Virus record (IMG/VR): IMGVR_UViG_3300028920_000026
Span: 1-64,000 of that record
Length of the DNA stretch: 64,000 bases
DNA from: a virus
Direction: 5' to 3' (one strand)
Made by a program: the position numbers and the translations under genes. The notes under the pieces were generated by a model, which did not search any database, had not been told where the DNA came from, and saw only the letters and a program-made list of their open reading frames with translations. Shown here in pieces: positions 1,371 through 53,362 of the stretch; the stretch's first letter is position 1; every line of letters begins with the position of its first letter.

Positions 1371-1564
1371 AATTGTTGCAGGTAAGCAAGCGAATCGTCC
1401 AAAATGAATTGTTGTGATAAGTGTGATTGCGAATTTACTCGTCGATACGTACGAAAATTTATGTGTGAACAACACTTGTGTTCAAACGAATGTAACTGTT
1501 GATGAGATTGAACCATACCAATCATTGCTTGAGGGATTACATAGCAATGCTTATGTAACTACCT

Positions 1565-1894
1565 GTGTTAAAAGCGCAAGGTAAGGAAACCGAACAGAAA
1601 ATGCGGCAGCTACCTATTATCGAAATGGCTACGAGTGAAGTTTCAGAGTCTGTGCCCTCGACCGTCTTCGAACAGACGGGATACCAGATCTTCTATCGGT
1701 ATCAACCGAGTATCTTCTTTTCAAACGTTCGTGACTTTACGGCAAAGAAGCTCCACGCATACGCTGACTCTACGTCGAATCCAGTCACACGCCTGAACAG
1801 GTACGCCCTCCTGAAGGATTATCTCGACGGCAACGTCGCGGTGTGTTGGTGCAACGGCGAACCAAAGTTCCAGCGACTCGAACGCGCAGCTTGA
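1565..1894 (+). CDS. hypothetical protein
   Basis: 109-aa ORF directly upstream of groEL; no recognisable motif and not GroES-like. Confidence 0.3.
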   Translation: MLKAQGKETEQKMRQLPIIEMATSEVSESVPSTVFEQTGYQIFYRYQPSIFFSNVRDFTAKKLHAYADSTSNPVTRLNRYALLKDYLDGNVAVCWCNGEPKFQRLERAA

Positions 1895-1925
1895 CCAACG
1901 AACGCGGAAGGAGTAAGATCCTTCC

Positions 1926-3524
1926 ATGGACGTTGAGAACGAACACACAAGCACGAACATCCTGTTTCGAGACGACGCAAAGGACGCACTCTTAAAGGGT
2001 GCGTCGACCGTCGCAGAAGCCGTCGGATGTACGATGGGTCCTCGTGGGAGGACGGTGCTGATCCAACAGGAGGGGAAGGCACCGATCCTGACGAAGGACG
2101 GCGTCACAGTCAGCAAGGCCGTCAGGCTCAAGGACCCGATCGCGCGCATGGGTGGTGACCTGCTCCGCGATGCAGCCAGCAGGACGAACGAGGTCGCTGG
2201 CGACGGAACGACCACAGCAACGGTCATCTCATACGCGTTGATGCGTGAAGGACACAAGCTTCTGTCCGCTGGGCACAACCCGCTCGAGCTGGTGAGGGAC
2301 CTCGAGCTCGCGAAGAACGCGGCGACGATGATGCTAAAGACTGCGGCACATCCAGTCAAGGATACCGACACGCTCCGCACCGTCGCCACGATCTCGGCGA
2401 ACGGCGATGAGGCGATCGGAGGCTTCATCGCCGATGCCCTCAACAAGGTCGGCAGGGATGGGATCGTCACCGTCGAGGACGCCAAGGGGACGACGACCTC
2501 GCTTGACGTGGTCGAGGGCACGCAGTTCGAGCGTGGCTACCTCAGCCCCTACTTCGTGACAAACAACGACAAGATGGTCGCCATCTATGATGGATGCGAC
2601 GTCCTCGTGACAGACAGACGGTTGGGTTCAATCACCGAGCTCATCCCTGTCCTCGAGAACTGCAGGTCAGGAAGGCCCCTGCTAATCATTGCTGATGATG
2701 TGGAACCAGAGGCGCTACAGGCGCTCGTCCTAAACAGGGTAAAGAACCGCCTCCGCGTGGTGGCGGTCAAGGCACCTGGCATCGGTCAGGCGAAGGGACA
2801 CATGTTGGACGACATCGCGACGCTCGTCGGCGGAACCGTCGTATCAGCAAAGAGAGGAATCGAGCTCAAAGATGCAGTTGCCCACCTAGGCCACACGAGA
2901 AAAGCCATTGTGAACGCCAAGGCTACCACCTTGGTGGGCACAGAAAAAACGAGTGAGGCCCTCGTGGGCCGGATTAAGGAGCTCAGGTCACAGCTGGAGG
3001 ACCCAACCCTTGATTCGGACGAGGAGGCGATCCTGAAGCTCCGGCTCGCGAGGTTGACGGGTTCTGTTGCTGTTATCAAGGTGGGCGGTGCCACTGAGCT
3101 CGAAATCTCCGAACGAAGGTATAGAATCGAGGACGCACTTAACGCGACGCGCGCGGCGGTGGAGGAGGGCTTCGTCCCGGGAGGCGGGATCGCGCTGTAC
3201 AACGTCGTCCAGGAACTAGGACAGGTCACCGACGGATCGACGCAGCTGATGATCGCAGGATGCCTTGAGCCACTCCGCCGCATCGCAGAAAACGCAGGCA
3301 TGAGCTTTGATGTCGTATCTCACCTCATATCGTCCACCCGGAGCGGTATACTGGATGCAGAGATCGGTATAGACGACTACGGGTGGGACGCTCGGAAGAA
3401 GGAAGTCAGGAAGTTCACTGATATCATCGATCCGGTCAAGGTCACGAGGACGGCGCTTGAGAACGCAGTTTCCGTAGCGATCGCATTTCTGTCGCTTGGG
3501 GCGGCTGTTTACGAGGAAGAATGA
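1926..3524 (+). CDS. groEL: GroEL/Hsp60-type chaperonin (no C-terminal GGM tail)
   Basis: 532-aa ORF with canonical GroEL blocks 'DGTTTATV', 'AVKAPGFG'-like 'AVKAPGIGQAK', 'VAVIKVGGATE', 'EEGFVPGGG'. It ends ...VYEEE with no Gly-Gly-Met repeats. Its stop overlaps the next start (ATGA). Confidence 0.95.
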   Translation: MDVENEHTSTNILFRDDAKDALLKGASTVAEAVGCTMGPRGRTVLIQQEGKAPILTKDGVTVSKAVRLKDPIARMGGDLLRDAASRTNEVAGDGTTTATVISYALMREGHKLLSAGHNPLELVRDLELAKNAATMMLKTAAHPVKDTDTLRTVATISANGDEAIGGFIADALNKVGRDGIVTVEDAKGTTTSLDVVEGTQFERGYLSPYFVTNNDKMVAIYDGCDVLVTDRRLGSITELIPVLENCRSGRPLLIIADDVEPEALQALVLNRVKNRLRVVAVKAPGIGQAKGHMLDDIATLVGGTVVSAKRGIELKDAVAHLGHTRKAIVNAKATTLVGTEKTSEALVGRIKELRSQLEDPTLDSDEEAILKLRLARLTGSVAVIKVGGATELEISERRYRIEDALNATRAAVEEGFVPGGGIALYNVVQELGQVTDGSTQLMIAGCLEPLRRIAENAGMSFDVVSHLISSTRSGILDAEIGIDDYGWDARKKEVRKFTDIIDPVKVTRTALENAVSVAIAFLSLGAAVYEEE

Positions 3525-29201: not shown

Positions 29202-29810
29202 TCAACAACCTTTGAGTACATAGCTTTCCTCCTCTTTAACGAGAGCGCGCACAACGCGCTCTCGTTCGGGCGTCCAGGGGATGCCGCGTCGTTCGAGCAA
29301 CCACTGCGCTGCGTTACCTCGTTTGCGAGCGAAACGCCCACGCTCCGTATTGGTGATCCGCGGGTCGGTTAGAAACGCCTCCCAGCGTGCCTCTTCGACC
29401 GCGTCCTGTTGGTGCCGCGCTACTTCTCGCGCCAGCGCTGCGCTGTAGCGCGGATAGAGCTCGACATGTTCGAAACTGGTAAGCGTGCCTACTACGATCG
29501 GCACGCCATCGACATCGACCGTGAAATTATACGTGATTTCGTCGAGCTGCGTGTCATATTCTTCGCGGCGCGCGGCACGGCGAGTTAGCGGCCATTCGCC
29601 GCCGTACGCGTCGGTCACTGCCAGCCTGACGAGCTTATCGTAGGTGGTAGGTGCGGGCAGCGGCCGCACGTCCACCGTTTCGCCGTTGCGGTTCGTGTGC
29701 GCGGTGCACACCACGCCGTCGTCGCGCAACACTAGGAATCTATCACCGGACATCTGTGTATCCCCCAGCGAAACCTCGCGCGGGGTCGCCATAGATTCCG
29801 GTGAGCCCAT
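29202..29810 (-). CDS. hypothetical protein (GC-rich island)
   Basis: 202-aa ORF; overlaps the upstream ORF. Confidence 0.4.
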   Translation of the reverse strand: MGSPESMATPREVSLGDTQMSGDRFLVLRDDGVVCTAHTNRNGETVDVRPLPAPTTYDKLVRLAVTDAYGGEWPLTRRAARREEYDTQLDEITYNFTVDVDGVPIVVGTLTSFEHVELYPRYSAALAREVARHQQDAVEEARWEAFLTDPRITNTERGRFARKRGNAAQWLLERRGIPWTPERERVVRALVKEEESYVLKGC

Positions 29811-30849
29811 TTTCTGGCCCCCAGACTTTTATGAAGTGTTCGACAAGCTCGGGCGACGTCGCACCCCCGAGGATGATCTTAGTCCCCTCGCGATTTTCTA
29901 TTCCAGCGAGATAGGCAATGCCGAGGTAGCACGCAGCGTCCGGCAACTCGGGTGTGTACTGTCCGCGCAAATCGACCACGTTGTGGAATTGGCCACCGCA
30001 CGTTCCGCAATCGCATAGACCGCGGTCGCCCCGCGAACCGTTTGCGCCACATGCGCAACGGAACAATGGGAACGTGTCCGCCTCACGAAGTGCGGCGACC
30101 GCAGCGGAGAAGTCCTCGGCATACTGAGCCTCACTCTTCGGTTCGAACGGCCGCGTCTTGGCCATTCGTGCGCGGTACCTGCGCACATCATCGCAGGTAA
30201 CGCCAGGGCATCGACCCGCCCAAGCGTGGGCGAGACAGTGGTCGCACGCAGCTGTGATTACCAGGTCACGGGGGATGCCGCGGTAACCACTCGGCGTGCG
30301 AACCCACCAACAAGCATCGACGTAGATGAGATCCGAAGGCTCTCGCGGCATCGAGTATAGCTCGGGCCAGTGCGCGGGGAGCACATTGAGTCGTCCTAGC
30401 TCGACGATGACCTGTCCGAGCGAGCTTCCCTCGAGGAAGCGCTCAGGCGAAAAACCGAAGCCCGGGTCGCCCGGTCGATGGTGGTCGAAGCGGCGGATGC
30501 CTGCCTGGGCGTCGATGCCCAACGACTCGAGTGCACCAGTCACGCCAGCGAGTTTGGAGACGATGAGGTCGTGCTCATCGTCGATTGCCGGTCCCCAGCA
30601 TTCGACGGCGGCGTAGTACACGCCATCGGTTACGGGTAGTTTCTCGACCGCGTAAGCCGTCCGCGGTGTCACACGCTCACCATCCGCGTTGAGTGCGTGA
30701 GCCACTAGCTCACCGCAATCGATTAGCAGCACCTCAATCTCCACCATTTCGGGGTCGTTCGCCCCGAGGATCCATACTCGTCTCATTTCTCGTCTCCTTT
30801 CGGTGGCGAGCACGCCACCCAAGTGTCCCCAATCTTTTGCTCCCACCAT
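29743..30849 (-). CDS. hypothetical Cys-rich protein (GC-rich island)
   Basis: 368 aa; 'CACGANGSRGDRGLCDCGTCGG' and 'CDHCLAHAWAGRCPGVTC' cysteine clusters. The start overlaps the next ORF (ATGA). Confidence 0.45.
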   Translation of the reverse strand: MVGAKDWGHLGGVLATERRREMRRVWILGANDPEMVEIEVLLIDCGELVAHALNADGERVTPRTAYAVEKLPVTDGVYYAAVECWGPAIDDEHDLIVSKLAGVTGALESLGIDAQAGIRRFDHHRPGDPGFGFSPERFLEGSSLGQVIVELGRLNVLPAHWPELYSMPREPSDLIYVDACWWVRTPSGYRGIPRDLVITAACDHCLAHAWAGRCPGVTCDDVRRYRARMAKTRPFEPKSEAQYAEDFSAAVAALREADTFPLFRCACGANGSRGDRGLCDCGTCGGQFHNVVDLRGQYTPELPDAACYLGIAYLAGIENREGTKIILGGATSPELVEHFIKVWGPENGLTGIYGDPARGFAGGYTDVR

Positions 30850-35256: not shown

Positions 35257-35457
35257 CAATCCAGGAAGGTATACTAAGACCATGGCACGCTACGACGATG
35301 GAACGAACAAGATCAATTGACAGAGACTATTTGTCGAATTTTCACCGCGGGTTCAGGATTAACACTCGGGTGTTTATGTCTATCGAAAAATTCAATGTTG
35401 AAACGCTACGGACCGCTGCGAAAATGATCGACGCCTTCGCAGAAATAAAGATAATCA

Positions 35458-37074: not shown

Positions 37075-37161
37075 GTCTCTCTGGGGCGAGGGCGACGTCG
37101 CCTGTCGCGTGGTTGCTTGCCGCACACCTCGCCCTGGTTTTTTCATCGATCGTCGATCGTC

Positions 37162-37569
37162 ATGTCAGACAAAAAGCAGTCAGGAACGTTCAACCCGAAC
37201 CTCACGCAGGTTGAGAGGTTCCTTCTACACCAGATCATGCACAGGATGGGCGTAATCCCGCTTGAGTATGCGGCCATCGACGTTGCGCGCATACTCAAGA
37301 CGCTGCCCGACGATCAGGCCCGGATGCTTCGCAGGAAGTTTCGGAAGTTTTGGCGCACGGGCATGAAGCGCGAAAAGGCTCAGGCTCAAAAGCACCACCA
37401 GCGCAACAAAACTGCGCTTGCTCGCGAGCTTGAAGCGATCGATCGTCGCTACGGCGTAGGCTCAGCGAATCCGTCGCGTGCTGCACGACGGCACAGGAAA
37501 ACACGGGTCATAGACGCTGTTGCTGGTGAAGTAGTTCGTTGTATCCTTGCGTTGAAGCAGGAGGACTGA
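37162..37569 (+). CDS. hypothetical basic protein
   Basis: Start taken at internal 'MSDKKQSG'; Arg/Lys-rich. Confidence 0.4.
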   Translation: MSDKKQSGTFNPNLTQVERFLLHQIMHRMGVIPLEYAAIDVARILKTLPDDQARMLRRKFRKFWRTGMKREKAQAQKHHQRNKTALARELEAIDRRYGVGSANPSRAARRHRKTRVIDAVAGEVVRCILALKQED

Positions 37570-39407: not shown

Positions 39408-39558
39408 TGGAGGTCTTCACACGACAGACGTACAGGGGTCAGACAGACTGACATCAAGCATAGGAATGATTGAACGGGAGCACTTTGGTGCTCCCGTTTC
39501 TTTTTAGATCTCTCTGGTGTACTTGAAGAACTGGATTGTGGTACACTGTGGACACAAG

Positions 39559-41000: not shown

Positions 41001-41133
41001 CAACAACAACACGGTACAGTGAGAAGAGCTCGGTCGAAAGGCTGGGCTCGACTCGTTTCTTTTTGCACGACACGCCGTATACAACGCGCGCCGGACTCCG
41101 TGCCGTGGCGAACGCCAAGTGGTACCTTGAACC

Positions 41134-45032: not shown

Positions 45033-45242
45033 ATGCCTGGACGTGGTACCTCTGATTGGGTCGGAGACGAGGGAAACTACACTCACAAGGAGTACAGCGA
45101 CATCGAGCTCGAAACGATCCCACCTCAGCCTCGCACGGGCGCGATCCCAGACGAGGCGAAATGGCACTTCGGTGCTGTTACTCAGAACGTTGATCCGAAG
45201 AACATCGCGGTCCCGCCACCCCGCCGCAACCGTGCAGCGTAA
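45033..45242 (+). CDS. hypothetical small protein
   Basis: 69-aa ORF. Confidence 0.3.
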   Translation: MPGRGTSDWVGDEGNYTHKEYSDIELETIPPQPRTGAIPDEAKWHFGAVTQNVDPKNIAVPPPRRNRAA

Positions 45243-45266
45243 TCGTCTGGGTGGTATTGTACCACC

Positions 45267-47519: not shown

Positions 47520-47530
47520 GACAACAGGAG

Positions 47531-47595
47531 AGGCCCTCTCGGGTCTCTCTCGAGACCTTTCTTGGGTCCTAGGTAGGATTCCATACGTACGCCTC
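47531..47595 (+). repeat. ~65-nt intergenic repeat containing TAGGTAGGATTCCATACGTACG (copy 1)
   Basis: Shares 'ccctctcggg' and an exact 22-mer with 51281..51345. Confidence 0.45.
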
Positions 47596-47645
47596 AGGCC
47601 CTCACGAGGGCAGCCTCGAGGCATGTGCCGCGGACCCCCATAGGG

Positions 47646-47662
47646 GATATACTAAGATCATG
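47646..47662 (+). promoter_or_regulatory. GGTATACT-N6-ATG start motif
   Basis: 'ggatatactaagatcATG'. Confidence 0.5.
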
Positions 47663-47848
47663 GCAACCAACGTACAGAAGGCGCAGAAGCTCAGTGAGCT
47701 CGCAGAGGTCATCGCAAAGAATCGTCCATCCGAAAAACAGATTCGAGAGGCGTGCAGAAGCATCGCTCGCCAGTTTGGCGTTAGGGTGAAGGACGTCCGC
47801 GGGTTGGTGGACGCAGCGGTTGCGCTGTACAACGGAAGGATCCAATGA
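47660..47848 (+). CDS. small protein, founder of a 3-member paralog set (ACR..A..G..V.DV.GLVD motif)
   Basis: 62 aa; '...EKQIREACRSIARQFGVRVKDVRGLVDAAVALY'; canonical 'GGATATACTAAGATCATGGCAAC'. Confidence 0.5.
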   Translation: MATNVQKAQKLSELAEVIAKNRPSEKQIREACRSIARQFGVRVKDVRGLVDAAVALYNGRIQ

Positions 47849-48123: not shown

Positions 48124-48179
48124 TCGATCGTCGCACGTCGACACACGACGGCACGCAAGGGTTGGTGTGTTTCCGGTTC

Positions 48180-48527: not shown

Positions 48528-48757
48528 GGACTCGATGGACAAGACATTCGCGCTCGTCGAGCTATACGACGTACACACGTGGTAATGCGTGGTTGCCAAG
48601 CCAGAGGAGGATCCGGGAGTGGGGTCCCCTGCCTCACTAAGGTGTGATGGTAGAAACCCGACTAAACCAACCAGATGATACCATCGGGATCCTAGGACAA
48701 CCCTCAGGGGGGTCGGACATCCTGTGCTGCCGAAACGGGTGTGGTACGGTACGACCA

Positions 48758-48948
48758 ATGGAAAAAACAATCACGATCGAACTAATCAAAAGTTTCTGCA
48801 AGACTACGGTGACCTCGCTGAGTTCATTACAAAGCATCTGAGCAACAGGTGCAGGAAGCGTGTAGAGACATTGCCAAGCAGTTCAACGTCAGTGTAAAGG
48901 ATGTTCGTGGGGTGGTGGACACTGCGATTACACTCTATGAGAAGTAAC
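48758..48948 (+). pseudogene. decayed paralog of gene 47660..47848 (two frameshifts)
   Basis: Three successive frames read 'MEKTITIELIKSFC' / 'KDYGDLAEFITKHLS' / 'EQQVQEACRDIAKQFNVSVKDVRGVVDTAITLYEK*'. This is colinear with 'MATNVQKAQKLSELAEVIAKNRPSEKQIREACRSIARQFGVRVKDVRGLVDAAVALYNGRIQ'. Its upstream motif is also degenerate ('GGTACGGTACGACCAATGG'). Confidence 0.45.
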
Positions 48949-49028
48949 GGTCCCTACCGAGATTCATTCAGTCGAACTCAGGATTTGATCGATCAACGAC
49001 ACACTACAGGCCAGTGCCGCGGCAGCCT

Positions 49029-49053
49029 AATCATGGTAGATTAGAACCATCAA
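49029..49053 (+). repeat. conserved 25-mer AATCATGGTAGAYTARAACCATCAA (copy 2 of 2)
   Basis: See 48180..48204. Confidence 0.45.
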
Positions 49054-49055
49054 AG

Positions 49056-49074
49056 GGGAGCGGCGGACGCTCCC
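49056..49074 (+). terminator. hairpin gggagcg-gcgga-cgctccc
   Basis: Precedes the ATG of 49091. Confidence 0.35.
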
Positions 49075-49090
49075 TTGGAAGGCAACCACG

Positions 49091-49354
49091 ATGGATCAAG
49101 ATGTACGAAAGAGACTTCACGAGATTTACCGTAACCTCGACGAGCTCCTCACCGAGCTCAAAGACACCATGCGGTCGGAGCCCGACCTTCAACCCTACTA
49201 CGAACCTGCCAGGGCGTACTGGCTGGCATCGTTGGATGTCGGTCTGAATGCAGCCGAGTATGTCACCTTCAACCCGACTTTCTCCGGTATGCTCGAGGAC
49301 CTCGGCATCATGGACTACGACGGTGAGTTCATCGAGTGCGAAGAGGAATGCTGA
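49091..49354 (+). CDS. hypothetical small acidic protein
   Basis: 87 aa; preceded by the hairpin 49056..49074. Confidence 0.45.
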   Translation: MDQDVRKRLHEIYRNLDELLTELKDTMRSEPDLQPYYEPARAYWLASLDVGLNAAEYVTFNPTFSGMLEDLGIMDYDGEFIECEEEC

Positions 49355-49382
49355 AGCATCAGCTCGGAATCTAGCACGGGTG

Positions 49383-49402
49383 CCCCTGGCTTCGGCCAGG
49401 GG
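49383..49402 (+). terminator. UUCG-tetraloop hairpin (terminator/insulator-like) preceding a start motif
   Basis: 'cccctggc-ttcg-gccagggg'. Confidence 0.45.
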
Positions 49403-49417
49403 TATACTCTAACCATG
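49401..49417 (+). promoter_or_regulatory. GGTATACT-N6-ATG start motif
   Basis: 'ggtatactctaaccATG' immediately 3' of hairpin 49383..49402. Confidence 0.5.
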
Positions 49418-49603
49418 GCATTCAGGAACAACAACGGCGACGTGATTCGCATCAACCTCGTGTCCAACGCGTTCTGCGTCAACAACGGGCCCTACGTCCA
49501 GTGGGAGCGCGCGACGATTGAAGGCCTCTGCAGCCAGCTTACGAGCAGCACTGATTGGGTACGCATCCCGTCTGGAACAGGCATCTTCACTCCCGCTTGG
49601 TGA
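49415..49603 (+). CDS. hypothetical small protein
   Basis: 62 aa; hairpin + 'GGTATACTctaaccATGG'. Confidence 0.45.
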   Translation: MAFRNNNGDVIRINLVSNAFCVNNGPYVQWERATIEGLCSQLTSSTDWVRIPSGTGIFTPAW

Positions 49604-49628
49604 GGATGAACGGTCGTCGATCGATGTC

Positions 49629-49648
49629 TGACACGGGAAACCCCGTGT
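49629..49648 (+). terminator. hairpin preceding a start motif
   Basis: 'gacacggg-aaac-cccgtgtc'. Confidence 0.45.
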
Positions 49649-49665
49649 CGGTCCCCACCTTCGAA

Positions 49666-49682
49666 GGTATACTGAGACCATG
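49666..49682 (+). promoter_or_regulatory. GGTATACT-N6-ATG start motif
   Basis: 'ggtatactgagaccATG'. Confidence 0.5.
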
Positions 49683-49994
49683 GAAAAACGCAAGCCAAGC
49701 GAGTTCGCGCTAGGAGACATCGTCAAGATGACGTCTTACGATGGCAAGGGTTTCTGCGGACGGGATCCTCACCCGAAACCCTACGATGTTGGCAAGGAGT
49801 ATCTAATCCTCAAGGTGAAGTACAACGATGGAAGCGACTTCGTGCCCATGGAAGGCGAAACGCAGGAAGACCTCGCCTTCACAGTCATGGACTGCCAGTG
49901 CCTCGATGGTACAGAGCGCAAGGTACAGCTCGTTGATCACGAGGTGGAGCTGGTCTCAGATCTACTCAGGGGCTTCTTCTTTGAGTGTGAGTGA
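49680..49994 (+). CDS. hypothetical small protein
   Basis: 104 aa; hairpin + 'aaGGTATACTGAGACCATGG'. Confidence 0.5.
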   Translation: MEKRKPSEFALGDIVKMTSYDGKGFCGRDPHPKPYDVGKEYLILKVKYNDGSDFVPMEGETQEDLAFTVMDCQCLDGTERKVQLVDHEVELVSDLLRGFFFECE

Positions 49995-50049
49995 GTCCTG
50001 AAAAAAGCTTCGACCGCGCAGTAGCGTGGTCGTGTGGTTGCCAATGCCT

Positions 50050-50095
50050 GAGAAGGTGGGGGCTTGGGCACTTCGGTTCGGGTCCCCACCTTCTC
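50050..50095 (+). terminator. long hairpin (12-bp stem) with internal cUUCGg
   Basis: 'gagaaggtgggg...cttcgg...ccccaccttctc' after the stop of 49680..49994. Confidence 0.45.
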
Positions 50096-50153
50096 ATTCC
50101 TTCACCGTTTCCCCGAGGGCTGTAGCCGTCTCGTGTTGTATACGGCCTGCGAG

Positions 50154-50170
50154 GGTATACTAAGACCATC
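50154..50170 (+). promoter_or_regulatory. GGTATACT-N6 motif with start codon mutated to ATC, followed by a ~65-nt leader
   Basis: 'gggtatactaagaccATC'; the real ATG is 67 nt downstream, after a second 'ggtataaagaatcATGG'. Confidence 0.45.
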
Positions 50171-50234
50171 GGACAGGAACGGCGCGGGAAGCGTCGGCGG
50201 ATGAAACTCAACCCACACGAAGGTATAAAGAATC
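50171..50234 (+). repeat. duplicated 5' leader (copy 1) between the ATC-mutated motif and the real ATG
   Basis: 'ggacaggaacggcgcgg.aag...ggcg..ATGaa.c.caacccacacgaaggtataaagaa.c' is ~90% identical to 52593..52658. Confidence 0.45.
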
Positions 50235-50567
50235 ATGGCAAACGGCACACACAAGGCAATGTTCCTCTCACTCGCCAGCCTCCTCACCGGCAGCATCTTG
50301 ATGTTCTGCGCGGTCTATTCTGGAACGCATCACTCTCCCGTATCGGTCCCGACGTACGAGGACACGGTCACCCAACCTGTTCCAGTCGAGGTCACCCCCG
50401 ACGTCACCGAGGTCGAGACGGTCACCATCTCGGTTAAGGCACCTCCAAAGCGTGGCAGTGTCATGAAGCTCGGCGAGAGCCGCAAGGTCACGGGTCGGTG
50501 CTGGAAACAGGCCCTCGAGCAAGGCGGCAGTCCAGACGCCCCGAACGTCATCGTCTGCGACCTCTGA
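50235..50567 (+). CDS. secreted/membrane-anchored small protein (paralog of 52659..52985)
   Basis: 110 aa; N-terminal hydrophobic 'AMFLSLASLLTGSILMFCAVYSG'; C-terminus '...GRCWKQALEQGGSPDAPNVIVCDL' parallels the paralog '...KRCFEHVMAQQGRPRARSVIVCE'. Confidence 0.55.
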   Translation: MANGTHKAMFLSLASLLTGSILMFCAVYSGTHHSPVSVPTYEDTVTQPVPVEVTPDVTEVETVTISVKAPPKRGSVMKLGESRKVTGRCWKQALEQGGSPDAPNVIVCDL

Positions 50568-50579
50568 ACACAACCACAC

Positions 50580-50601
50580 GGGACCGGCACGTGCCGGTCC
50601 C
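50580..50601 (+). terminator. perfect 22-nt palindromic hairpin GGGACCGGCACGTGCCGGTCCC
   Basis: Directly after the stop of 50235..50567 and 10 nt before the TATACT motif. Near-identical copies occur at 52030..52057 and 52334..52355. Confidence 0.5.
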
Positions 50602-50611
50602 TCTCCCTCGG

Positions 50612-50628
50612 GATATACTGAGACCATG
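50612..50628 (+). promoter_or_regulatory. GGTATACT-N6-ATG start motif
   Basis: 'ggatatactgagaccATG'. Confidence 0.5.
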
Positions 50629-51183
50629 GAAACGGCAACCATGATGACCCCACAGCCTACCCTTGAGGCCGTCCTTGCGGCTCTCAACACGCAGCGTGGC
50701 CTGGAACGTGGCATCACCCTGATCGCCAAGCGACAGACGCCCGATGAACGGATCGAGTTCACCACGAAGTACGACAACGATCGGGGCTTCGAGGCATGGG
50801 CGGCACGCAAGGGGACCCGCATCGCAAACGCCGTCCTTGATGATGGCGCCCGCCTGACTCCTGGGTCATCATGGTGGGCCTTCGCACAGAAGGTGCTCCG
50901 TCGCAACAAATACCAGCTTCTGGAAGAGGCATGGAAGAAGTGGTGGCAAAAGAACTCTGCGCTCGTCACCCCCGGCACGGGCATCGAGCTGGCACACGGG
51001 TTCACCCTATCGGACGGGTCAAAGGTGCGGCACAACCACATGCTCCTCTTCATGGCCTTCGAGCCCGATCCTGAGGGTCACCACGAGGGACACATCGTCT
51101 TCCTCAACAAGGACGGCGTGCCCAAACGGGAGCATCCCAGCTACCTCTTCCGGCGCGTCAAACAGATCCTGATACCTGCATAG
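50626..51183 (+). CDS. hypothetical protein
   Basis: 185 aa; begins 'METATMM' from the same 'ATGGAAACGGCAACC' start as 51681; palindromic hairpin + 'GGATATACTGAGACCATGG'. Confidence 0.5.
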   Translation: METATMMTPQPTLEAVLAALNTQRGLERGITLIAKRQTPDERIEFTTKYDNDRGFEAWAARKGTRIANAVLDDGARLTPGSSWWAFAQKVLRRNKYQLLEEAWKKWWQKNSALVTPGTGIELAHGFTLSDGSKVRHNHMLLFMAFEPDPEGHHEGHIVFLNKDGVPKREHPSYLFRRVKQILIPA

Positions 51184-51280
51184 GGCTGGCTGGTAACGAT
51201 CGTCGATCGCCCGCTCGTCACGCGAGCAAAATGAAAAAGCTGGTACACGGTGGCTGCCGTTAAAATTTGACCATTCACGA

Positions 51281-51345
51281 GCCCTCTCGGGACCCTCTCA
51301 AGGGCCTTGGAAGGGCTTAGGTAGGATTCCATACGTACGTCAAAG
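51281..51345 (+). repeat. ~65-nt intergenic repeat containing TAGGTAGGATTCCATACGTACG (copy 2)
   Basis: See 47531..47595. Confidence 0.45.
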
Positions 51346-51362
51346 GACCCTTGCGGGGGTCC
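51345..51362 (+). terminator. hairpin ggaccc-ttgcg-ggggtcc
   Basis: Precedes the RBS and ATG of 51374. Confidence 0.35.
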
Positions 51363-51373
51363 GGGGGAGAAAG

Positions 51374-51607
51374 ATGAAAGACAGCGAACGACGGCTATTG
51401 AACGTGATCAACGTCCACGGGCACTCACCTAGGCGCGTGCGCAAGGCGTGTCGAAATGTAGCCCGCCGCCTCGGGATCGACAAGCAGTACGTCCAAGACG
51501 TTGTCGCGAGGGTCTTTGTAGCGTACTCACTCGACGGCACCGTGCTGCACCTCACGTACTGTGGTGCGGTACAAGGAATGCCGAGTTGTTTTTGGAGATC
51601 GTCCTGA
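51374..51607 (+). CDS. small protein, paralog of 47660..47848
   Basis: 77 aa; 'VRKACRNVARRLGIDKQYVQDVVARVF'; uses an SD-type start 'ggagaaagATG' after the hairpin 51345..51362. Confidence 0.45.
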   Translation: MKDSERRLLNVINVHGHSPRRVRKACRNVARRLGIDKQYVQDVVARVFVAYSLDGTVLHLTYCGAVQGMPSCFWRSS

Positions 51608-51666
51608 TGACCCCTTCGCACCAAGTTAAGGAAGCGAACAGCGTGGTGCGCTAACCACCACGAAGG

Positions 51667-51683
51667 GGTATACTAAGACCATG
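51667..51683 (+). promoter_or_regulatory. GGTATACT-N6-ATG start motif
   Basis: 'gggtatactaagaccATG'. Confidence 0.5.
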
Positions 51684-51965
51684 GAAACGGCAACCACCAA
51701 GTCAACCAAGCTCCGGAAAATCTACCTGCGCGGTCCCAAGGGCGACACCAAGAAGGTGCTCGTGCTCCTGGCCGGTGTCCTCTACGAGGCCGAATACACG
51801 GTGTCCTGCTACGAAGACCTCGGTGGTGACAAGTGTGAGGTCCTTGATGTCACTGATACCTACATCCACGTACGCCTTGGCACCGGCGTGGAAAACATCT
51901 TCACCCGGCAAGCGCTGGCCGCCGCACCCGCCCAGCTCGAGCTACCCTTCGCGGTCGCGGCCTAA
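51681..51965 (+). CDS. hypothetical small protein
   Basis: 94 aa; 'GGGGTATACTAAGACCATGGAAACGGCAACC'. Confidence 0.5.
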   Translation: METATTKSTKLRKIYLRGPKGDTKKVLVLLAGVLYEAEYTVSCYEDLGGDKCEVLDVTDTYIHVRLGTGVENIFTRQALAAAPAQLELPFAVAA

Positions 51966-52029
51966 CAACACCCGCAACAGTGTGCCCCGACTGAAGTCGG
52001 GGCACACTACTGGGACCATGGACCTCTGA

Positions 52030-52057
52030 GAATGGACCGGCACGTGCCGGTCCATTC
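52030..52057 (+). terminator. palindromic hairpin gaatGGACCGGCACGTGCCGGTCCattc
   Basis: Copy of the 50580 palindrome with an extended stem; precedes the TATACT motif of 52079. Confidence 0.5.
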
Positions 52058-52064
52058 CCTCAAG

Positions 52065-52081
52065 GGTATACTAAGACCATG
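52065..52081 (+). promoter_or_regulatory. GGTATACT-N6-ATG start motif
   Basis: 'gggtatactaagaccATG'. Confidence 0.5.
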
Positions 52082-52318
52082 GAAGCAACCAAACAAGCGG
52101 TAAAAGGAATCACTCGAGCAATCAAGTCACAGGTCGAAAGAATGGATGATTTCTTTAGAGATTGTTTGGACCTGTATGACGTTGATGATGCCAGCGTTCT
52201 GGAAATCAATCCGGAAGAGTTCTCCAAGATGGTCATTGATGCTGTCACCGAGGAACTCAACGGAGATCTGAGTGAGGTCTTCAAGGATTGGATGGAGCGC
52301 TATCAGGAAGATATCTAA
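52079..52318 (+). CDS. hypothetical small acidic protein
   Basis: 79 aa; palindromic hairpin + 'aGGGTATACTAAGACCATGG'. Confidence 0.5.
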   Translation: MEATKQAVKGITRAIKSQVERMDDFFRDCLDLYDVDDASVLEINPEEFSKMVIDAVTEELNGDLSEVFKDWMERYQEDI

Positions 52319-52333
52319 ACCAGAGGACCACAC

Positions 52334-52355
52334 GGGACCGGCATGTGCCGGTCCC
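52334..52355 (+). terminator. palindromic hairpin GGGACCGGCATGTGCCGGTCCC
   Basis: Third copy (one central substitution), directly after the stop of 52079..52318. Confidence 0.5.
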
Positions 52356-52575
52356 TCTCCTGGCTTTGAGAGAGTGAAAGGAAGAAGGACAGTTCGGGTT
52401 TTTCTTCAACACCAACGGAAACTGTGACGTGATCACTCTTTCAGACCATTGATGACGTTGACGAACTGGAGTCTGTGGGTACACCACTAATATTCCTCCC
52501 TCATTTTCACTCCTCTAATCCTAGTTGGTGGGGGAGAAATCCCCCACCTTCACCGTGTCCCCTACTTTTCAAGGG

Positions 52576-52592
52576 GATATACTAAGACCATC
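52576..52592 (+). promoter_or_regulatory. GGTATACT-N6 motif with ATC, followed by the duplicated leader
   Basis: 'ggatatactaagaccATC'; second copy of the 50154 arrangement. Confidence 0.45.
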
Positions 52593-52658
52593 GGACAGGA
52601 ACGGCGCGGAAGGCTCCGGCGCTGATGAAGACCAACCCACACGAAGGTATAAAGAACC
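52593..52658 (+). repeat. duplicated 5' leader (copy 2)
   Basis: See 50171..50234. Confidence 0.45.
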
Positions 52659-52985
52659 ATGGCAACCAACGGAATCAACAAGGTCCTTTCAATCGTAGTC
52701 CTCTTCGCCGGCGCAGCAGCCCTGGCACTCTCACTCGGGTTCATCAACAACAGCAACGCTCAAGAAGTCGACACAGACGCGCTGTATCCGACACGGGATG
52801 AGGTCACACGCCCTGTCCCCAAGGGTGAGGTCACCATCACATCCATCACTGTCACTGAGCACCCCAAAAAGGTGCCTGCCACACGGAAGGCGTCCTACAC
52901 GAAACCGGTCCAAAAGCGCTGCTTCGAGCACGTCATGGCCCAGCAGGGTCGTCCCAGAGCTCGCAGCGTCATCGTCTGTGAGTGA
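52659..52985 (+). CDS. secreted small protein (paralog of 50235..50567)
   Basis: 108 aa; signal-like 'VLSIVVLFAGAAALALSLGFINNSNAQE'; shares the duplicated ~70-nt leader with its paralog. Confidence 0.55.
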   Translation: MATNGINKVLSIVVLFAGAAALALSLGFINNSNAQEVDTDALYPTRDEVTRPVPKGEVTITSITVTEHPKKVPATRKASYTKPVQKRCFEHVMAQQGRPRARSVIVCE

Positions 52986-52998
52986 TCACCTTCATCCG

Positions 52999-53022
52999 GT
53001 GTCCTCCCCTTCGGGGGAGGAC
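52999..53022 (+). terminator. UUCG-tetraloop hairpin
   Basis: 'gtcctcccc-ttcg-ggggaggac'; after the stop of 52659..52985, overlapping the next CATACT box. Confidence 0.45.
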
Positions 53023-53035
53023 ATACTAAGACCAT
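53019..53035 (+). promoter_or_regulatory. CATACT-N6-ATG start motif overlapping a hairpin stem
   Basis: 'gacatactaagaccATG'. Confidence 0.45.
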
Positions 53036-53212
53036 GGAAACAATCACAGCAAGATCTACACGGTCTTCTGATGCCGAAAGGATCGGCGCACGCTGTATAC
53101 GGCACGCCCAAAGGGGGCCCCACTACTCGTCGAGAGGATCCTCGATGCATGATGGGGCCCCCTTTTTACGTCGAGGAGAGCACACAGAGGGCCCCCTTGA
53201 GAGCCCCCTATG
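53033..53212 (+). CDS. hypothetical small basic protein (59 aa)
   Basis: hairpin + 'CATACTAAGACCATGG'; its 3' end runs into the CCCCCTTGAGAG repeats. Confidence 0.35.
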
Positions 53213-53248
53213 AAGCCCCCTTGAGAGCCCCCTCTTGGGGCCCCCTTG
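53188..53248. repeat. tandem array of ~5 x 12-nt CCCCCTTGAGAG-like units (GGGCCCCC-rich)
   Basis: 'gcccccttgagag ccccctatgaag cccccttgagag ccccctcttggg gcccccttgcat'; two more GGGGCCCC palindromes lie upstream at ~53114 and ~53154; sits at the plus-to-minus strand-switch. Confidence 0.5.
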
Positions 53249-53362
53249 CATAAACCTTTGTGGGGCCTCTGGTGCGGCGGCCAGCGCTTAGGCCGTTCAC
53301 ACACGACACGGGAAATTTCGGCCAGAATTCAATCCTTCTGGCGCATCAAGAGTGGACAGCTC

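What the first reader, a model, noticed from the sequence alone, without database searches (positions are those of the whole stretch)
49383..53022. Hairpin-promoter-ATG 'insulated cassette' architecture with UUCG tetraloops and a thrice-repeated perfect palindrome
Each small gene in 49-53 kb is bounded by a stable stem-loop placed 5-20 nt upstream of the TATACT box. Three cassettes carry the near-identical 22-28-nt palindrome GGGACCGGCA(C/T)GTGCCGGTCCC (50580, 52030, 52334). Others carry cUUCGg tetraloop hairpins (49383, 50050, 52999). None is followed by a U-tract, so they are not classical intrinsic terminators; they may be RNase III processing sites, terminators for a non-host RNAP, or mRNA 3'-stabilisers. 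Placing a hairpin before every promoter creates autonomous single-gene modules, an arrangement that would facilitate cassette shuffling.
Basis: seen in the sequence. Interest (0 to 1): 0.65.

Follow-up and report, generated by a model that had tools for sequence, protein, structure and literature searches.

The report
Hairpin plus leaderless-promoter gene cassettes
In a 4-kb stretch of a roughly 331-kb phage-like genome, small orphan genes each sit between an RNA hairpin and a highly conserved promoter that starts the message at the ATG itself; the layout is real, but it closely resembles the known promoter/stem-loop cassettes of T4-type phages, so it is a new variant and not a new kind of system.

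Summary
The observation largely holds. Window 49-53 kb carries 11 stem-loops, three copies of the palindrome GGACCGGCAYGTGCCGGTCC and two clean cUUCGg hairpins, and none is followed by a U-tract.

1. "TATACT" is half of a strictly spaced promoter, GTG-N20-TATACT-N6-ATG. That is a -35 hexamer GTGnnn, a 17-nt spacer, a -10 hexamer and a 6-nt discriminator, which puts +1 on the A of ATG and makes the mRNAs leaderless. There are 21 copies, all on the + strand, between 35.3 and 53.0 kb. The same promoter recurs in a family of uncultivated phage contigs, most named like JGI freshwater-lake assemblies.
2. The hairpins overlap this promoter at variable positions: in the spacer, over the -35, or upstream of it. 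One palindrome has no promoter after it. All follow stop codons.
3. The hairpin-promoter pairing is local. The 13 other promoters in the window and 156 promoters in relatives show no hairpin enrichment.

Best reading: the hairpins are 3'-end elements (attenuators or stabilisers) of monocistronic ORFan cassettes, jammed against the next leaderless promoter. This is functionally analogous to T4-type PeSL cassettes. A phage-encoded sigma-70-like factor lacking region 4.2, found in relatives, may read the promoter, but this is unproven for this genome.

The parts
49014..49090 (+). Leadered variant of the promoter (GTG 49014-16, TAGATT 49037-42, ATC at +1). It carries a 42-nt leader with a 5' hairpin and the SD GGAAGG, ahead of gene 49091-49354.
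   Evidence: PWM scan, leader fold -17.8 kcal/mol, sequence.
49383..49402 (+). Hairpin CCCCTGGC-UUCG-GCCAGGGG, 28 nt after the stop codon at 49354. It fills exactly the 20 nt between the -35 GTG and TATACT of the next promoter.
   Evidence: -19.2 kcal/mol on + against -17.3 on -.
49380..49417 (+). Promoter P49403: GTG-N20-TATACT-CTAACC-ATG. Leaderless start of gene 49415-49603 (62 aa ORFan).
49630..49649 (+). Hairpin GACACGGG-AAAC-CCCGUGUC, 26 nt after the stop codon at 49603. Its 3' arm contains the -35 GTG (49645-47) of the next promoter.
   Evidence: -18.0 against -15.3 kcal/mol.
49645..49682 (+). Promoter P49668 (43.7 bits). Leaderless start of gene 49680-49994 (104 aa ORFan).
50011..50096 (+). 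Two tandem hairpins after the stop codon at 49994: 50011-50032 (9 bp, AGUA loop) and 50049-50096 (21 bp with 5 G.U pairs). The second folds at -37.5 kcal/mol as + strand RNA against -23.2 as - strand.
50133..50234 (+). Promoter P50156 with ATC at +1 and a 67-nt leader (50168-50234). A second, degenerate motif copy GAAGGTATAAAGAATCATGG lies at the start of gene 50235-50567 (110 aa, N-terminal hydrophobic segment).
50580..50601 (+). Palindrome copy 1, GGGACCGGCACGTGCCGGTCCC, 12 nt after the stop codon at 50567. Its centre CACGTG supplies the -35 GTG (50591-93) of P50614.
50591..50628 (+). Promoter P50614 (42.5 bits). Leaderless start of gene 50626-51183 (185 aa). This is the only cassette gene conserved in the 324-kb relative.
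51374..51607 (+). Gene for a 77-aa ORFan with a low-confidence three-helix (HTH-like) model. It is the only gene in the segment without the leaderless promoter and has the SD GGGGGAG. Paralogues lie at 47660-47848 and 48849-48947.
51642..51662 (+). Weak hairpin CGUGGUG...CACCACG (-10.6 kcal/mol) overlapping the -35 and spacer of P51669.
51646..51683 (+). Promoter P51669 (41.2 bits). Leaderless start of gene 51681-51965 (94 aa ORFan).
51979..52008 (+). Hairpin with a 13-bp perfect stem and UGAA loop (-26.7 kcal/mol), 13 nt after the stop codon at 51965. It is the first of two tandem hairpins.
52030..52057 (+). Palindrome copy 2, GAATGGACCGGCACGTGCCGGTCCATTC. The outer stem GAAT/ATTC replaces the G/C of copies 1 and 3. 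Its centre supplies the -35 GTG (52044-46) of P52067.
52044..52081 (+). Promoter P52067 (43.7 bits). Leaderless start of gene 52079-52318 (79 aa ORFan).
52334..52355 (+). Palindrome copy 3, GGGACCGGCATGTGCCGGTCCC, 15 nt after the stop codon at 52318. No promoter follows; the next TATACT is 222 nt away. It shares a 34-nt stretch, flanks included, with copy 1.
52527..52548 (+). Hairpin GGUGGGGGA-GAAA-UCCCCCACC (GNRA loop, -20.0 kcal/mol), ending 6 nt upstream of the -35 GTG of P52578.
52555..52658 (+). Promoter P52578 with ATC at +1 and a 69-nt leader, about 90% identical to that of P50156. It lies ahead of the paralogous gene 52659-52985 (108 aa).
53000..53023 (+). Hairpin UGUCCUCCCC-UUCG-GGGGAGGACA, 14 nt after the stop codon at 52985. 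It spans the spacer and runs 2 nt into the -10 (CATACT) of P53022.
   Evidence: -21.8 against -19.9 kcal/mol.
52999..53175 (+). Promoter P53022 plus a ~140-nt highly structured transcript (53034-53175) without coding signature. It ends in the only U-tract terminator of the segment (stem 53110-53165, then UUUUU) and closes the + strand block.
   Evidence: GC1/2/3 0.57/0.63/0.53; z = -4.6.

Best explanation
The 49-53 kb segment is the distal end of an 18-kb + strand block (35.3-53.2 kb) of small, mostly orphan genes in a ~331-kb phage-like genome.

Promoter and start. Genes are transcribed one by one from a conserved promoter with sigma-70 geometry: -35 GTGnnn, 17-nt spacer, G-G-TATACT, discriminator AAGACC. 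Its +1 is the A of the ATG, so the mRNAs are leaderless. A leaderless AUG is efficiently used only at a 5' end, so every gene needs its own promoter.

Hairpins. The GC-rich hairpins belong to the 3' end of the preceding gene's transcript. They act as RNA on the + strand, as U-tract-less attenuators/terminators and/or as barriers to 3' exonucleases. In this tightly packed segment they are squeezed onto or into the next promoter: in the spacer, over the -35, or just upstream.

Result. The outcome is a composite hairpin/promoter junction, functionally analogous to the PeSL (promoter-early stem-loop) cassettes of T4-type phages. Such junctions insulate neighbouring units. Because they are repeated, they can also serve as recombination points for gain, loss and duplication of ORFan cassettes.

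Shown: the motif anatomy, its spacing, its strand bias and its conservation; the positions of the hairpins; and the fact that the pairing is local.
Inferred: the transcription start at the ATG, an RNA-level function for the hairpins, and a role in shuffling.
For: PROMOTER
- TATACTNAGACCATG occurs 14 times against 0.16 expected, all on the + strand.
- GTG lies exactly 20 nt upstream of TATACT in 13 of 14 window sites and 16 of 16 sites of a relative.
- A PWM finds 21 sites, all on the + strand.
- A generic sigma-70 scan reads four of them as GTGACG, GTGTCA or ATGACG, a 17-nt spacer, then TATACT.
- In relatives, 137 of 147 non-redundant GTG-N20/21-TAnAnT-nnGAYC sites are followed at once by ATG.
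- The g50626 orthologues both start at the motif's ATG.
- Four sites keep the motif with ATC at +1 and carry a leader with a Shine-Dalgarno sequence. The motif therefore does not need the ATG, which argues for a promoter over a translation signal.

HAIRPINS AS 3' ELEMENTS
- All lie 12-56 nt after stop codons. In 49-53 kb, 7 of 9 gene ends have a top-5% structure (for 49994 this is the -33 kcal/mol hairpin at 50049-96, beyond the scored +40-nt window), against about 2 of 29 in 35-49 kb.
- Their position relative to the promoter varies, and copy 52334 has no promoter.
- G.U pairs make the + strand RNA more stable: 50049-96 folds at -37.5 against -23.2 kcal/mol, and four others differ by about 2-3 kcal/mol.
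- RNA-type tetraloops are present: UUCG twice, GAAA once, UGAA once. The window holds 3 C(UUCG)G hairpins on +, 0 on -, 0.27 expected.
- The outer stem of palindrome copy 2 changed on both sides, G/C to GAAU/AUUC.
- The orthologous junction upstream of g50626 in the relative also carries hairpins, of different sequence, one over the -35 GTG (-36.9 kcal/mol, z=-2.7).
- A relative has the arrangement stop codon, cUUCGg hairpin, UUU, promoter.

CONTEXT
- 33 of 39 + strand genes have no homologue in the collinear region of the closest relative.
- The cassette proteins match no family.

PRECEDENT
- PeSL stem-loops sit between the -35 and -10, over either box, or upstream. They contain G-T pairs, flank ORFans, and act as terminators in vivo.
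Against: - No transcript data exist. The transcription start and any 3' ends are inferred.
- U-tract-less hairpins terminate poorly with at least mycobacterial RNAP in vitro (title and abstract of PMC3993855). Classical U-tract terminators do exist in this block, at 39472 and 53140 and at 41021. True termination at the tail-less hairpins is therefore doubtful, and stabilisation or attenuation may be the real role.
- The pairing is not a property of the promoter class. The 13 other window promoters show no enrichment (mean -13.0 against -13.6). Enrichment in the 324-kb relative is weak. There is none over 156 family promoters (p=0.42).
- Perfect tail-less hairpins are common throughout the window, about 24 in all, and roughly half lie inside ORFs. 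Some may have no function.
- The 20-bp palindrome core is identical in all three copies. This fits recent duplication or a protein-binding site as well as it fits an RNA structure.
- A shuffling role could not be tested. The only near relative found is a 99.96%-identical 2.4-kb contig.
Confidence: 0.55

Rival explanations
1. The three palindromes are DNA operators for a dimeric phage regulator, for example one of the small HTH-like proteins encoded nearby. Bound over the -35 GTG, it would repress or activate P50614 and P52067. On this view the RNA hairpin is incidental.
For: - The palindromes are perfect, with no spacer, and 22-28 bp long.
- The 20-bp core is identical in all copies apart from one central base.
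- The centre falls exactly on the -35 GTG of two of the strongest promoters.
- The palindromes fold equally well on both strands.
- g51374 lies between copies 1 and 2. It lacks the leaderless promoter and gives a low-confidence three-helix model whose weak matches are all HTH DNA-binding domains.
Against: - Copy 3 has no promoter within 220 nt.
- The equivalent place in the other cassettes is taken by unrelated hairpins, so one regulator cannot explain the pattern.
- The palindrome is absent from IMG/VR and from all fetched relatives, so it is not a conserved regulatory site.
- All HTH evidence is below significance: pLDDT 60, Foldseek E>0.6, Pfam E>0.04.
Confidence: 0.2
2. The hairpins are endonuclease processing sites (RNase III or similar) in read-through polycistronic transcripts, as in the T7 early region. 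Cleavage would leave stable 3' hairpins.
For: - They are intergenic and specific to the + strand.
- They lack U-tracts.
- The 50049-96 hairpin has 21 pairs, long enough for RNase III.
Against: - Most stems are 8-13 perfect pairs with tetraloops, shorter than typical RNase III substrates (established knowledge of RNase III, about two helical turns).
- Genes downstream of the hairpins have no Shine-Dalgarno sequence at normal spacing. Processed read-through RNA would therefore not be translated well, so processing would serve only the upstream gene. That reduces this rival to the stabiliser version of the best explanation.
Confidence: 0.1
3. The hairpins have no function of their own. They would be by-products of local duplication of GC-rich junction sequences, or tiny selfish palindromic repeats that settled in intergenic DNA.
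For: - The pairing is local and absent family-wide.
- The three palindromes are plainly paralogous: a 34-nt identity including flanks, unique to this genome.
- Many perfect tail-less hairpins occur elsewhere in the window, some inside ORFs.
Against: - Eight unrelated hairpin sequences occupy the same kind of position.
- 6 of 24 perfect hairpins fall in 2.5 kb, all intergenic and all 3' of + strand genes.
- G.U asymmetry and UUCG/GNRA loops point to selection at the RNA level.
- Hairpins are kept at the one orthologous junction available.
Confidence: 0.1
4. The conserved GRGG-TATACT-AAGACC-ATG block is a translation-initiation signal and not a promoter, comparable to the start-associated sequences of cluster K mycobacteriophages. 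The GAGG would act as a distant Shine-Dalgarno sequence, and the genes would be read from long polycistronic RNAs.
For: - A G-rich GAGG/GAAGG sits 12-13 nt before the ATG in most sites.
- The block is conserved right up to ATGG.
Against: - A fixed GTG 35 nt upstream of the ATG, with exact sigma-70 spacing, has no role in translation.
- TATACT matches TANNNT.
- Four sites keep the block with ATC and place a normal SD and ATG 40-70 nt downstream.
- A 12-13 nt spacing from SD to ATG is outside the usual optimum (established knowledge).
Confidence: 0.05

Closest known systems
PeSL (promoter-early stem-loop) composite terminator/promoter cassettes of T4-type phages (Arbiol et al. 2010, PMC2839356; Comeau et al. 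2014, PMC4122927)
   Same: - A repeated sigma-70-type promoter is fused to a stable GC-rich stem-loop in intergenic DNA.
- The stem-loop position varies: between the -35 and -10, over either box, or upstream.
- G-T pairs occur in the stems.
- The cassettes flank small ORFans in a variable region.
- The proposed roles are the same: insulation of single-gene units and recombination points for shuffling.
   Different: - The promoter here is GTGnnn-N17-TATACT-AAGACC, not the host consensus with an AT-rich upstream region.
- There is no Shine-Dalgarno sequence; the start is leaderless.
- Only 8 of 21 promoters of the class in the window carry a hairpin, and relatives mostly lack them.
- The genome is GC-rich (~54%) and shows no detectable kinship to T4.
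- Termination, promoter activity and mini-circles are untested.
Leaderless genes with the -10 box directly upstream of the ORF, as in Deinococcus-Thermus (PMC12340547, PMC4007540) and Actinobacteria (PMC4633059); middle and late genes of Thermus phage phiYS40 (Sevostyanova et al. 2007, recalled from memory and cited within PMC12340547)
   Same: A TANNNT box lies 6-7 nt upstream of the ATG, there is no Shine-Dalgarno sequence, and one promoter serves each gene.
   Different: - Here the whole -14 to +4 block and a -35 GTG are nearly invariant.
- They are shared across many phages, which suggests a dedicated, possibly phage-encoded, specificity factor.
- The host is unknown.
Morons of lambdoid phages (own knowledge; discussed in PMC2839356)
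   Same: Autonomous gene units with their own promoter and terminator, inserted between other genes.
   Different: Morons are single insertions with unrelated signals. Here there is an array that shares one promoter.
C(UUCG)G hairpins in T4 intercistronic regions (Tuerk et al. 1988 PNAS, own knowledge)
   Same: Very stable cUUCGg tetraloop hairpins between phage genes, linked to mRNA 3' stability.
   Different: Only 2-3 of the 11 hairpins here have this loop.
U-tract-less ('I-shaped') hairpins proposed as terminators in mycobacteria (tested and largely rejected in vitro: PMC3993855)
   Same: GC-rich intergenic hairpins without a U-tract in a genome that also uses leaderless mRNAs.
   Different: The host phylum here is unknown. 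The same block also contains canonical U-tract terminators (39472, 41021, 53140).

Membership tests
PeSL cassettes (T4-type phages) | Repeated sigma-70-like promoter (-35 and -10 boxes) in intergenic DNA | tested here: met
   The motif is GTG-N20-TATACT, that is a -35 hexamer plus a 17-nt spacer. There are 21 copies, all on +. The sequence differs from the E. coli-type consensus that PeSLs carry.
PeSL cassettes (T4-type phages) | Adjacent stable stem-loop whose position relative to the boxes varies | tested here: met
   Hairpins lie in the spacer (49383, 53000), over the -35 (49630, 50580, 51642, 52030) and upstream (50049, 52527). This holds only for the 8 promoters in 49-53 kb.
PeSL cassettes (T4-type phages) | [quoted passage not shown] | tested here: not met
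   The upstream DNA is GC-rich. Only 6 nt separate the -10 from the ATG and there is no SD.
PeSL cassettes (T4-type phages) | Preferential association with ORFans in hyperplastic regions between conserved genes | tested here: met
   6 of 39 + strand genes are conserved and collinear with the 324-kb relative; the rest have no homologue there. The cassette proteins match no family.
PeSL cassettes (T4-type phages) | Indels or replacements between close relatives bounded by the elements; mini-circles | not testable with these tools
   No relative between 72% and 99.9% DNA identity was found. The only indirect hints are the chimeric flanks of the palindrome copies and the duplicated cassette pair g50235/g52659.
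PeSL cassettes (T4-type phages) | Stem-loop terminates transcription and the promoter is active (reporter assays) | not testable with these tools
   This needs an experiment.
Canonical intrinsic terminator | GC-rich hairpin followed at once by a 7-9 nt U-tract | tested here: not met
   None of the 49-53 kb hairpins has 5 or more T in the 8-10 nt after the stem. Canonical terminators lie at 39472-39505, 41021-41068 and 53110-53172.
Leaderless transcription unit (-10 adjacent to the ORF) | TANNNT 6-7 nt upstream of the start codon and no SD at normal spacing | tested here: met
   TATACT, then 6 nt, then ATG in 10 of the 14 strong sites; 2 of the other 4 keep the spacing with a one-base variant -10 box (TAAACT, CATACT) and 2 have ATC at +1. 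In the family, 137 of 147 sites are followed by ATG.
Leaderless transcription unit (-10 adjacent to the ORF) | Mapped transcript 5' end at the start codon | not testable with these tools
   No transcriptome data are available.
RNase III processing site | About 20 bp or more of dsRNA stem, often with an internal loop | tested here: not met
   Only 50049-96 (21 pairs) qualifies. The others have 8-13 pairs.
N4-type hairpin promoter | Short DNA hairpin (5-7 bp stem, 3-nt loop) at a fixed position upstream of +1 | tested here: not met
   Stems are 8-21 bp, loops are 4-6 nt, and the position ranges from overlap with the -10 to 59 nt upstream.
Rfam families | Match to a curated RNA family | tested here: not met
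   No match reaches a gathering score in 34.0-54.5 kb.

The most novel reading that the evidence does not exclude
A widespread family of uncultivated phages, most seen on contigs named like JGI freshwater-lake assemblies (contigs of 20 to over 300 kb), may run large arrays of ORFan genes as leaderless, single-gene transcripts. These would start from a dedicated promoter, GTG(CAAAGTT)-N-GGTATACTAAGACC-ATG. The promoter would be read by a phage-encoded RpoD-like sigma factor that ends after region 4.1 and so lacks the -35-binding helix-turn-helix. The -35 GTG element would then be read by something else, possibly a separate small HTH protein. In this genome the hairpin/promoter junctions would act as PeSL-like linkers for cassette exchange.
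Probability: 0.25. Interest if true: 0.7.

Novelty: new variant of a known kind. Interest (0 to 1): 0.45.

Why it matters
- The work gives a precise, testable promoter definition for a large, uncultivated phage family: GTG-N20/21-TATACT-N6-ATG. It can be used to annotate gene starts, since many 50-100 aa ORFans are fixed by it, and to group contigs.
- It shows that the PeSL logic (terminator-like hairpin plus promoter as an insulated, portable junction) is not confined to AT-rich T4-type phages. It also occurs in a GC-rich huge phage that uses leaderless mRNAs, where a promoter per gene is a mechanistic necessity.
- Heavy reliance on leaderless starts narrows the host range to lineages with efficient leaderless translation.
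- The co-occurring truncated sigma factor offers an experimental handle: core RNAP plus this sigma on these promoters.

Tried and rejected
- Near matches in GenBank phages: none for the DNA of 48.8-53.6 kb or for the g50626 protein.
- Protein-based search of metagenome contigs for g50626 relatives: none.
- Exact-protein look-up: only a 99.96%-identical 2.4-kb contig and the 331-kb source contig. Cassette order among close relatives therefore could not be compared.
- Motif scan of GTDB genomes for a host or prophage: 4 single chance sites without the GTG element.
- Host inference from GroEL, the AAA ATPase or the RadA/KaiC-like protein: no close cultured relative.
- Rfam: nothing.
- Palindrome in IMG/VR and in all loci: absent.
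- Hairpin as an integral promoter element: rejected, because 13 window promoters and 156 family promoters lack enrichment.
- Sigma factor in the window: none. The weak hits to ORF 29743-30849 are not supported (hhalign probability 4.8%, no Pfam hit).
- Resemblance of the small paralogues g47660/g51374 to sigma region 4.2, seen by eye: not supported by BLAST or Pfam. The structure model has low confidence (pLDDT 60) and gives only generic HTH-like matches.
- Conserved leader of g50235/g52659 as a structured RNA: no significant fold (z about 0) and no compensatory pairs.
- Promoter sites within 3-6 kb of sigma genes in relatives: rare. The sigma-promoter link therefore rests on co-occurrence at contig level only.

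Full report
WHAT THE WINDOW IS
The window comes from a 331,213-bp metagenomic contig. It has about 54% G+C and two tRNA genes. It encodes a GroEL, a UvdE endonuclease and an 881-aa protein with major-vault-protein domains, whose only matches among GenBank phage records are three 'huge phage' genomes. Genes at 4-34 kb run on the - strand. A block of about 40 small genes at 35.3-53.2 kb runs on the + strand. The finding lies at the distal end of that block.

CHECK OF THE OBSERVATION
- The sequence features are there.
  - The palindrome core GGACCGGCAYGTGCCGGTCC occurs three times (50581, 52034, 52335) and nowhere else in the window; none is expected by chance.
  - Perfect stems with C(UUCG)G loops lie at 49383-49402 and 53000-53023. 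The window has three such hairpins, all on the + strand, against 0.27 expected.
  - Further strong stem-loops lie at 49630, 50011, 50049 (21 pairs), 51979 (13 pairs) and 52527 (GAAA loop).
  - None is followed by a T-run.
  - Six of the eight promoters in 49-53 kb have a structure in the top 5% of local folding energies within 75 nt upstream (mean -20.95 against -13.57 kcal/mol, p=1.3e-4).
- The details differ from the finding.
  - The hairpin-to-TATACT distance is 0-59 nt, not 5-20 nt.
  - The 50050 hairpin folds with a 6-nt loop.
  - One gene boundary (51183/51374) has neither a strong hairpin nor the promoter.
  - The palindrome at 52334 has no promoter after it.

THE PROMOTER
The 'TATACT box' is part of a much larger and stricter signal.
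- TATACTNAGACCATG occurs 14 times, all on the + strand, against 0.16 expected.
- Aligning the sites shows a GTG exactly 20 nt upstream of TATACT in 13 of 14 window sites (the fourteenth has ATG) and in 16 of 16 sites of a related contig.
- Read as a hexamer GTGnnn, this leaves the canonical 17-nt spacer of sigma-70 promoters. A generic sigma-70 scan indeed reports four sites as GTGACG, GTGTCA or ATGACG, then 17 nt, then TATACT.
- Exactly six bases (consensus AAGACC) separate the -10 hexamer from the ATG. By the standard geometry (-10 hexamer at -12 to -7), the A of the ATG is +1. This step is an inference from established promoter geometry; no transcript ends are available.
- A position-weight matrix finds 21 sites, all on the + strand, between 35270 and 53022.
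- Four sites (48188, 49037, 50156, 52578) have ATC at +1 and are followed by a 40-70 nt leader with an ordinary Shine-Dalgarno sequence. The motif therefore works independently of the ATG. This argues for a promoter and against a translation signal.

THE SAME PROMOTER IN A PHAGE FAMILY
- Pattern scans of IMG/VR and of JGI metagenomes bring in dozens of contigs of 20 to 324 kb. Most of the metagenome records carry JGI-style 'Ga…' names; I recognise many as freshwater-lake samples, but the tools do not state the source. They carry clusters of the motif, often with a longer upstream element GTGCAAAGTT at N21.
- Of 147 non-redundant GTG-N20/21-TAnAnT-nnGAYC sites, 137 are followed directly by ATG. 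One site per locus was ascertained with the ATG included, so the unbiased fraction is about 90%.
- These contigs share core genes with the window: the AAA ATPase, a RadA/KaiC-like ATPase and g40293.
- I found no description of the motif in the searchable literature.

WHERE THE HAIRPINS SIT
- Relative to the promoter the hairpins have no fixed place.
  - 49383-49402 fills the 20-nt spacer exactly.
  - 53000-53023 spans the spacer and enters the -10.
  - 49630, 50580, 51642 and 52030 cover the -35 GTG. In the two palindromes the central CACGTG supplies that GTG.
  - 50049 and 52527 lie upstream.
  - 52334 has no promoter at all.
- Relative to the preceding gene they are regular, starting 12-56 nt after the stop codon.
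- Several contain G.U pairs that make the + strand RNA more stable than its complement. The figures are -37.5 against -23.2 kcal/mol for 50049-96, and differences of 2-3 kcal/mol for 49383, 49630, 50011 and 53000.
- The loops include the RNA-specific stable tetraloops UUCG and GAAA.
- Palindrome copy 2 has an outer stem GAAT/ATTC where copies 1 and 3 have G/C, a change on both sides that keeps pairing.
- These points favour a role as RNA at the 3' end of the upstream transcript.

THE PAIRING IS LOCAL
- The 13 promoters of the same class upstream of 49 kb show no enrichment (mean -13.0 against a background of -13.6).
- In 35-49 kb only about 2 of 29 gene ends carry a comparable hairpin, against 7 of 9 in 49-53 kb (for 49994 the qualifying hairpin is the -33 kcal/mol one at 50049-96, which starts beyond the +40-nt window scored).
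- In the 324-kb relative, 26 promoters show only a weak shift.
- Over 156 non-redundant promoters of the family there is none (-13.76 against -13.59, p=0.42).
- Individual relatives do show the same layout, for example stop codon, GGGGGAGGACC-UUCG-GGUCCUCCCCC, UUU, promoter in L007.
- The one orthologous junction available (upstream of g50626, 59% protein identity) keeps hairpins of different sequence, one of them over the -35 GTG.
- Perfect tail-less hairpins are common throughout the window: about 24, against about 1 in shuffles. Six of them fall in the 2.5 kb at 50.5-53.1 kb, and all six are intergenic and 3' of + strand genes.
- Canonical terminators with U-tracts also exist in the block, at 39472 and 53140 and at 41021. 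The last of these closes the block.

THE PALINDROMES
- They are paralogous copies unique to this genome. They are absent from IMG/VR and from every fetched locus except a 99.96%-identical contig of the same phage.
- Copies 1 and 3 share 34 nt including flanks (ACCACACGGGACCGGCAYGTGCCGGTCCCTCTCC).
- Copies 1 and 2 share the downstream promoter.
- Copy 1 thus looks like a chimera of the other two contexts. This is what recombination within the repeat would produce, though it is only a hint.

CONTEXT
- Only 6 of 39 + strand genes have homologues in the collinear 28 kb of the closest relative.
- The cassette proteins match no Pfam or PHROG family of known function.
- The region therefore behaves like a hyperplastic ORFan island between conserved anchors.
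- Two cassettes (g50235 and g52659, proteins about 30% identical, with N-terminal hydrophobic segments) are old duplicates. Their promoter plus 5' leader remain about 90% identical over 85 nt.

MECHANISM PROPOSED
- Leaderless translation needs the AUG at the 5' end, so each gene needs its own promoter. Read-through RNA from upstream would be wasted for the downstream gene and could interfere with the closely spaced strong promoters.
- A stable hairpin at each gene end would then define or protect the 3' end of the upstream message and damp read-through. In a packed array it ends up on top of the next promoter.
- Whether it terminates (perhaps with NusA/NusG or a phage factor) or mainly blocks 3' exonucleases cannot be decided here.
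  - Against efficient termination, the title and abstract of the mycobacterial RNAP study report that this enzyme requires a U-tract at intrinsic terminators (PMC3993855).
  - For it, PeSL stem-loops of similar build reduced read-through in vivo as strongly as rrnB T1 (PMC2839356).

WHO READS THE PROMOTER
- The near-invariance of positions -14 to +4 and of the -35 element across phages of different G+C suggests a dedicated factor.
- Relatives that carry the promoter encode a ~275-aa RpoD-like protein with Sigma70_r2 and r3. It ends just after region 4.1 and so lacks the 4.2 helix-turn-helix.
- At contig level, 7 of 13 promoter-bearing IMG/VR contigs have it, although the lists were capped at 80 loci and most contigs are partial.
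- It usually lies next to homologues of the window's UvdE or AAA ATPase.
- It is not in the window, and I could not show it for the rest of the 331-kb genome. This is a lead, not a result.

COMPARISON WITH WHAT IS KNOWN
- The closest system is the PeSL of T4-type phages. It has a repeated sigma-70-like promoter and a GC-rich stem-loop in five positional subclasses (between the boxes, over either box, upstream, or downstream of the -10). G-T pairs occur in the stems, the elements flank ORFans in hyperplastic regions, and both terminator and promoter activity are shown. Recombination between copies causes indels and mini-circles (PMC4122927).
- The present case works like a PeSL but fails several membership criteria. 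It has no AT-rich upstream region and no SD, the promoter sequence is different, the hairpins are not a constant part of the repeat, and the phage lineage is unrelated.
- The leaderless design matches the '-10 box adjacent to the ORF' pattern of Deinococcus-Thermus and Actinobacteria. From memory, it also matches Thermus phage phiYS40.
- I therefore rate it a new variant of a known kind.

LIMITS
There are no transcript data, no host and no close relative for testing cassette mobility. The structure model of the small HTH-like protein has low confidence.

Noticed in passing
L007 3769-4602; also L061, L103, L175-L327: A large family of ~275-aa RpoD-like sigma factors on viral contigs up to 369 kb. 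They have Sigma70_r2 and r3 and end after region 4.1 (LSPKEAAILRLRFGL...GKGLT), with no region 4.2 HTH. The family co-occurs at contig level with the GTG...TATACT...ATG promoter, and the gene often lies next to UvdE or the AAA ATPase.
   Followed up: partly
window 17518-20163 (-): An 881-aa ORF with major-vault-protein shoulder and repeat domains (Pfam E=1.7e-26). Its only matches among GenBank phage records are three huge-phage genomes of 462-735 kb, at 39-41% identity.
   Followed up: no
window 50168-50234 and 52590-52658: The 5' leaders of the paralogous cassettes g50235 and g52659 are about 90% identical, while the proteins are only about 30% identical. The leaders are not significantly structured. 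Each holds a short out-of-frame ORF (MK.NPHEGIKNHG...) and a degenerate second copy of the promoter motif (ATG-N20-TATAAA-N5-ATG). The cause could be gene conversion, a regulatory leader, or a relic leaderless promoter.
   Followed up: partly
window 53034-53175: The last promoter of the block drives a ~140-nt sequence with no coding signature. It is exceptionally structured (-59.5 kcal/mol, z=-4.6) and ends in a canonical U-tract terminator. It is a candidate small RNA. GGGCCCCCTTGAGAGCCCCCT-type repeats follow at 53180-53250.
   Followed up: partly
window 47660-47848, 48849-48947, 51374-51607: Three paralogues of a small protein with the motif ..EACR.IA+QFGV.VKDVRG.V. The model is a low-confidence three-helix bundle whose weak matches are all HTH domains. 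The middle copy is only 32 codons long and follows a 65-codon ORF (48644-48841) in another frame, so it is a possible frameshift or pseudogene.
   Followed up: partly
window 47527-47600 and 51279-51350: A second conserved intergenic element of about 70 nt, GCCCTCTCGGG.C.CTCTC.AG...TAGGTAGGATTCCATACGTACG, followed by a small hairpin. It precedes both HTH-like paralogues g47660 and g51374 and may be another promoter class or an operator.
   Followed up: no
window 6252, 26098-26192, 32980, 37144-37162, 46042; shorter versions at 48124, 49614 and 51197, just after stop codons: The repeat CGTCGATCGTCG (built on CGATCG/GATC) occurs 9 times with at most 1 mismatch against 1.08 expected, all in the same orientation on the + strand regardless of gene direction.
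   Followed up: partly
window 35270-35320: The first and one of the strongest promoter copies (43.1 bits) opens the + strand block but is followed by only a 12-codon leaderless ORF and an AT-rich stretch. The next genes have Shine-Dalgarno sequences.
   Followed up: no
window 45160-45179: A third C(UUCG)G hairpin (8 pairs) on the + strand, about 75 nt upstream of the weak promoter at 45255.
   Followed up: no
window 4-34 kb and 53.3-60 kb (- strand blocks): No copy of the GTG-N20-TATACT-N6-ATG promoter occurs on the - strand anywhere in the window. Those genes must use a different promoter class, perhaps a different temporal class.
   Followed up: no
window 411-3524: A UvdE UV-endonuclease and a full-length GroEL-type chaperonin lie side by side. 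In 27 related loci the gene downstream of UvdE is the truncated sigma factor instead.
   Followed up: partly
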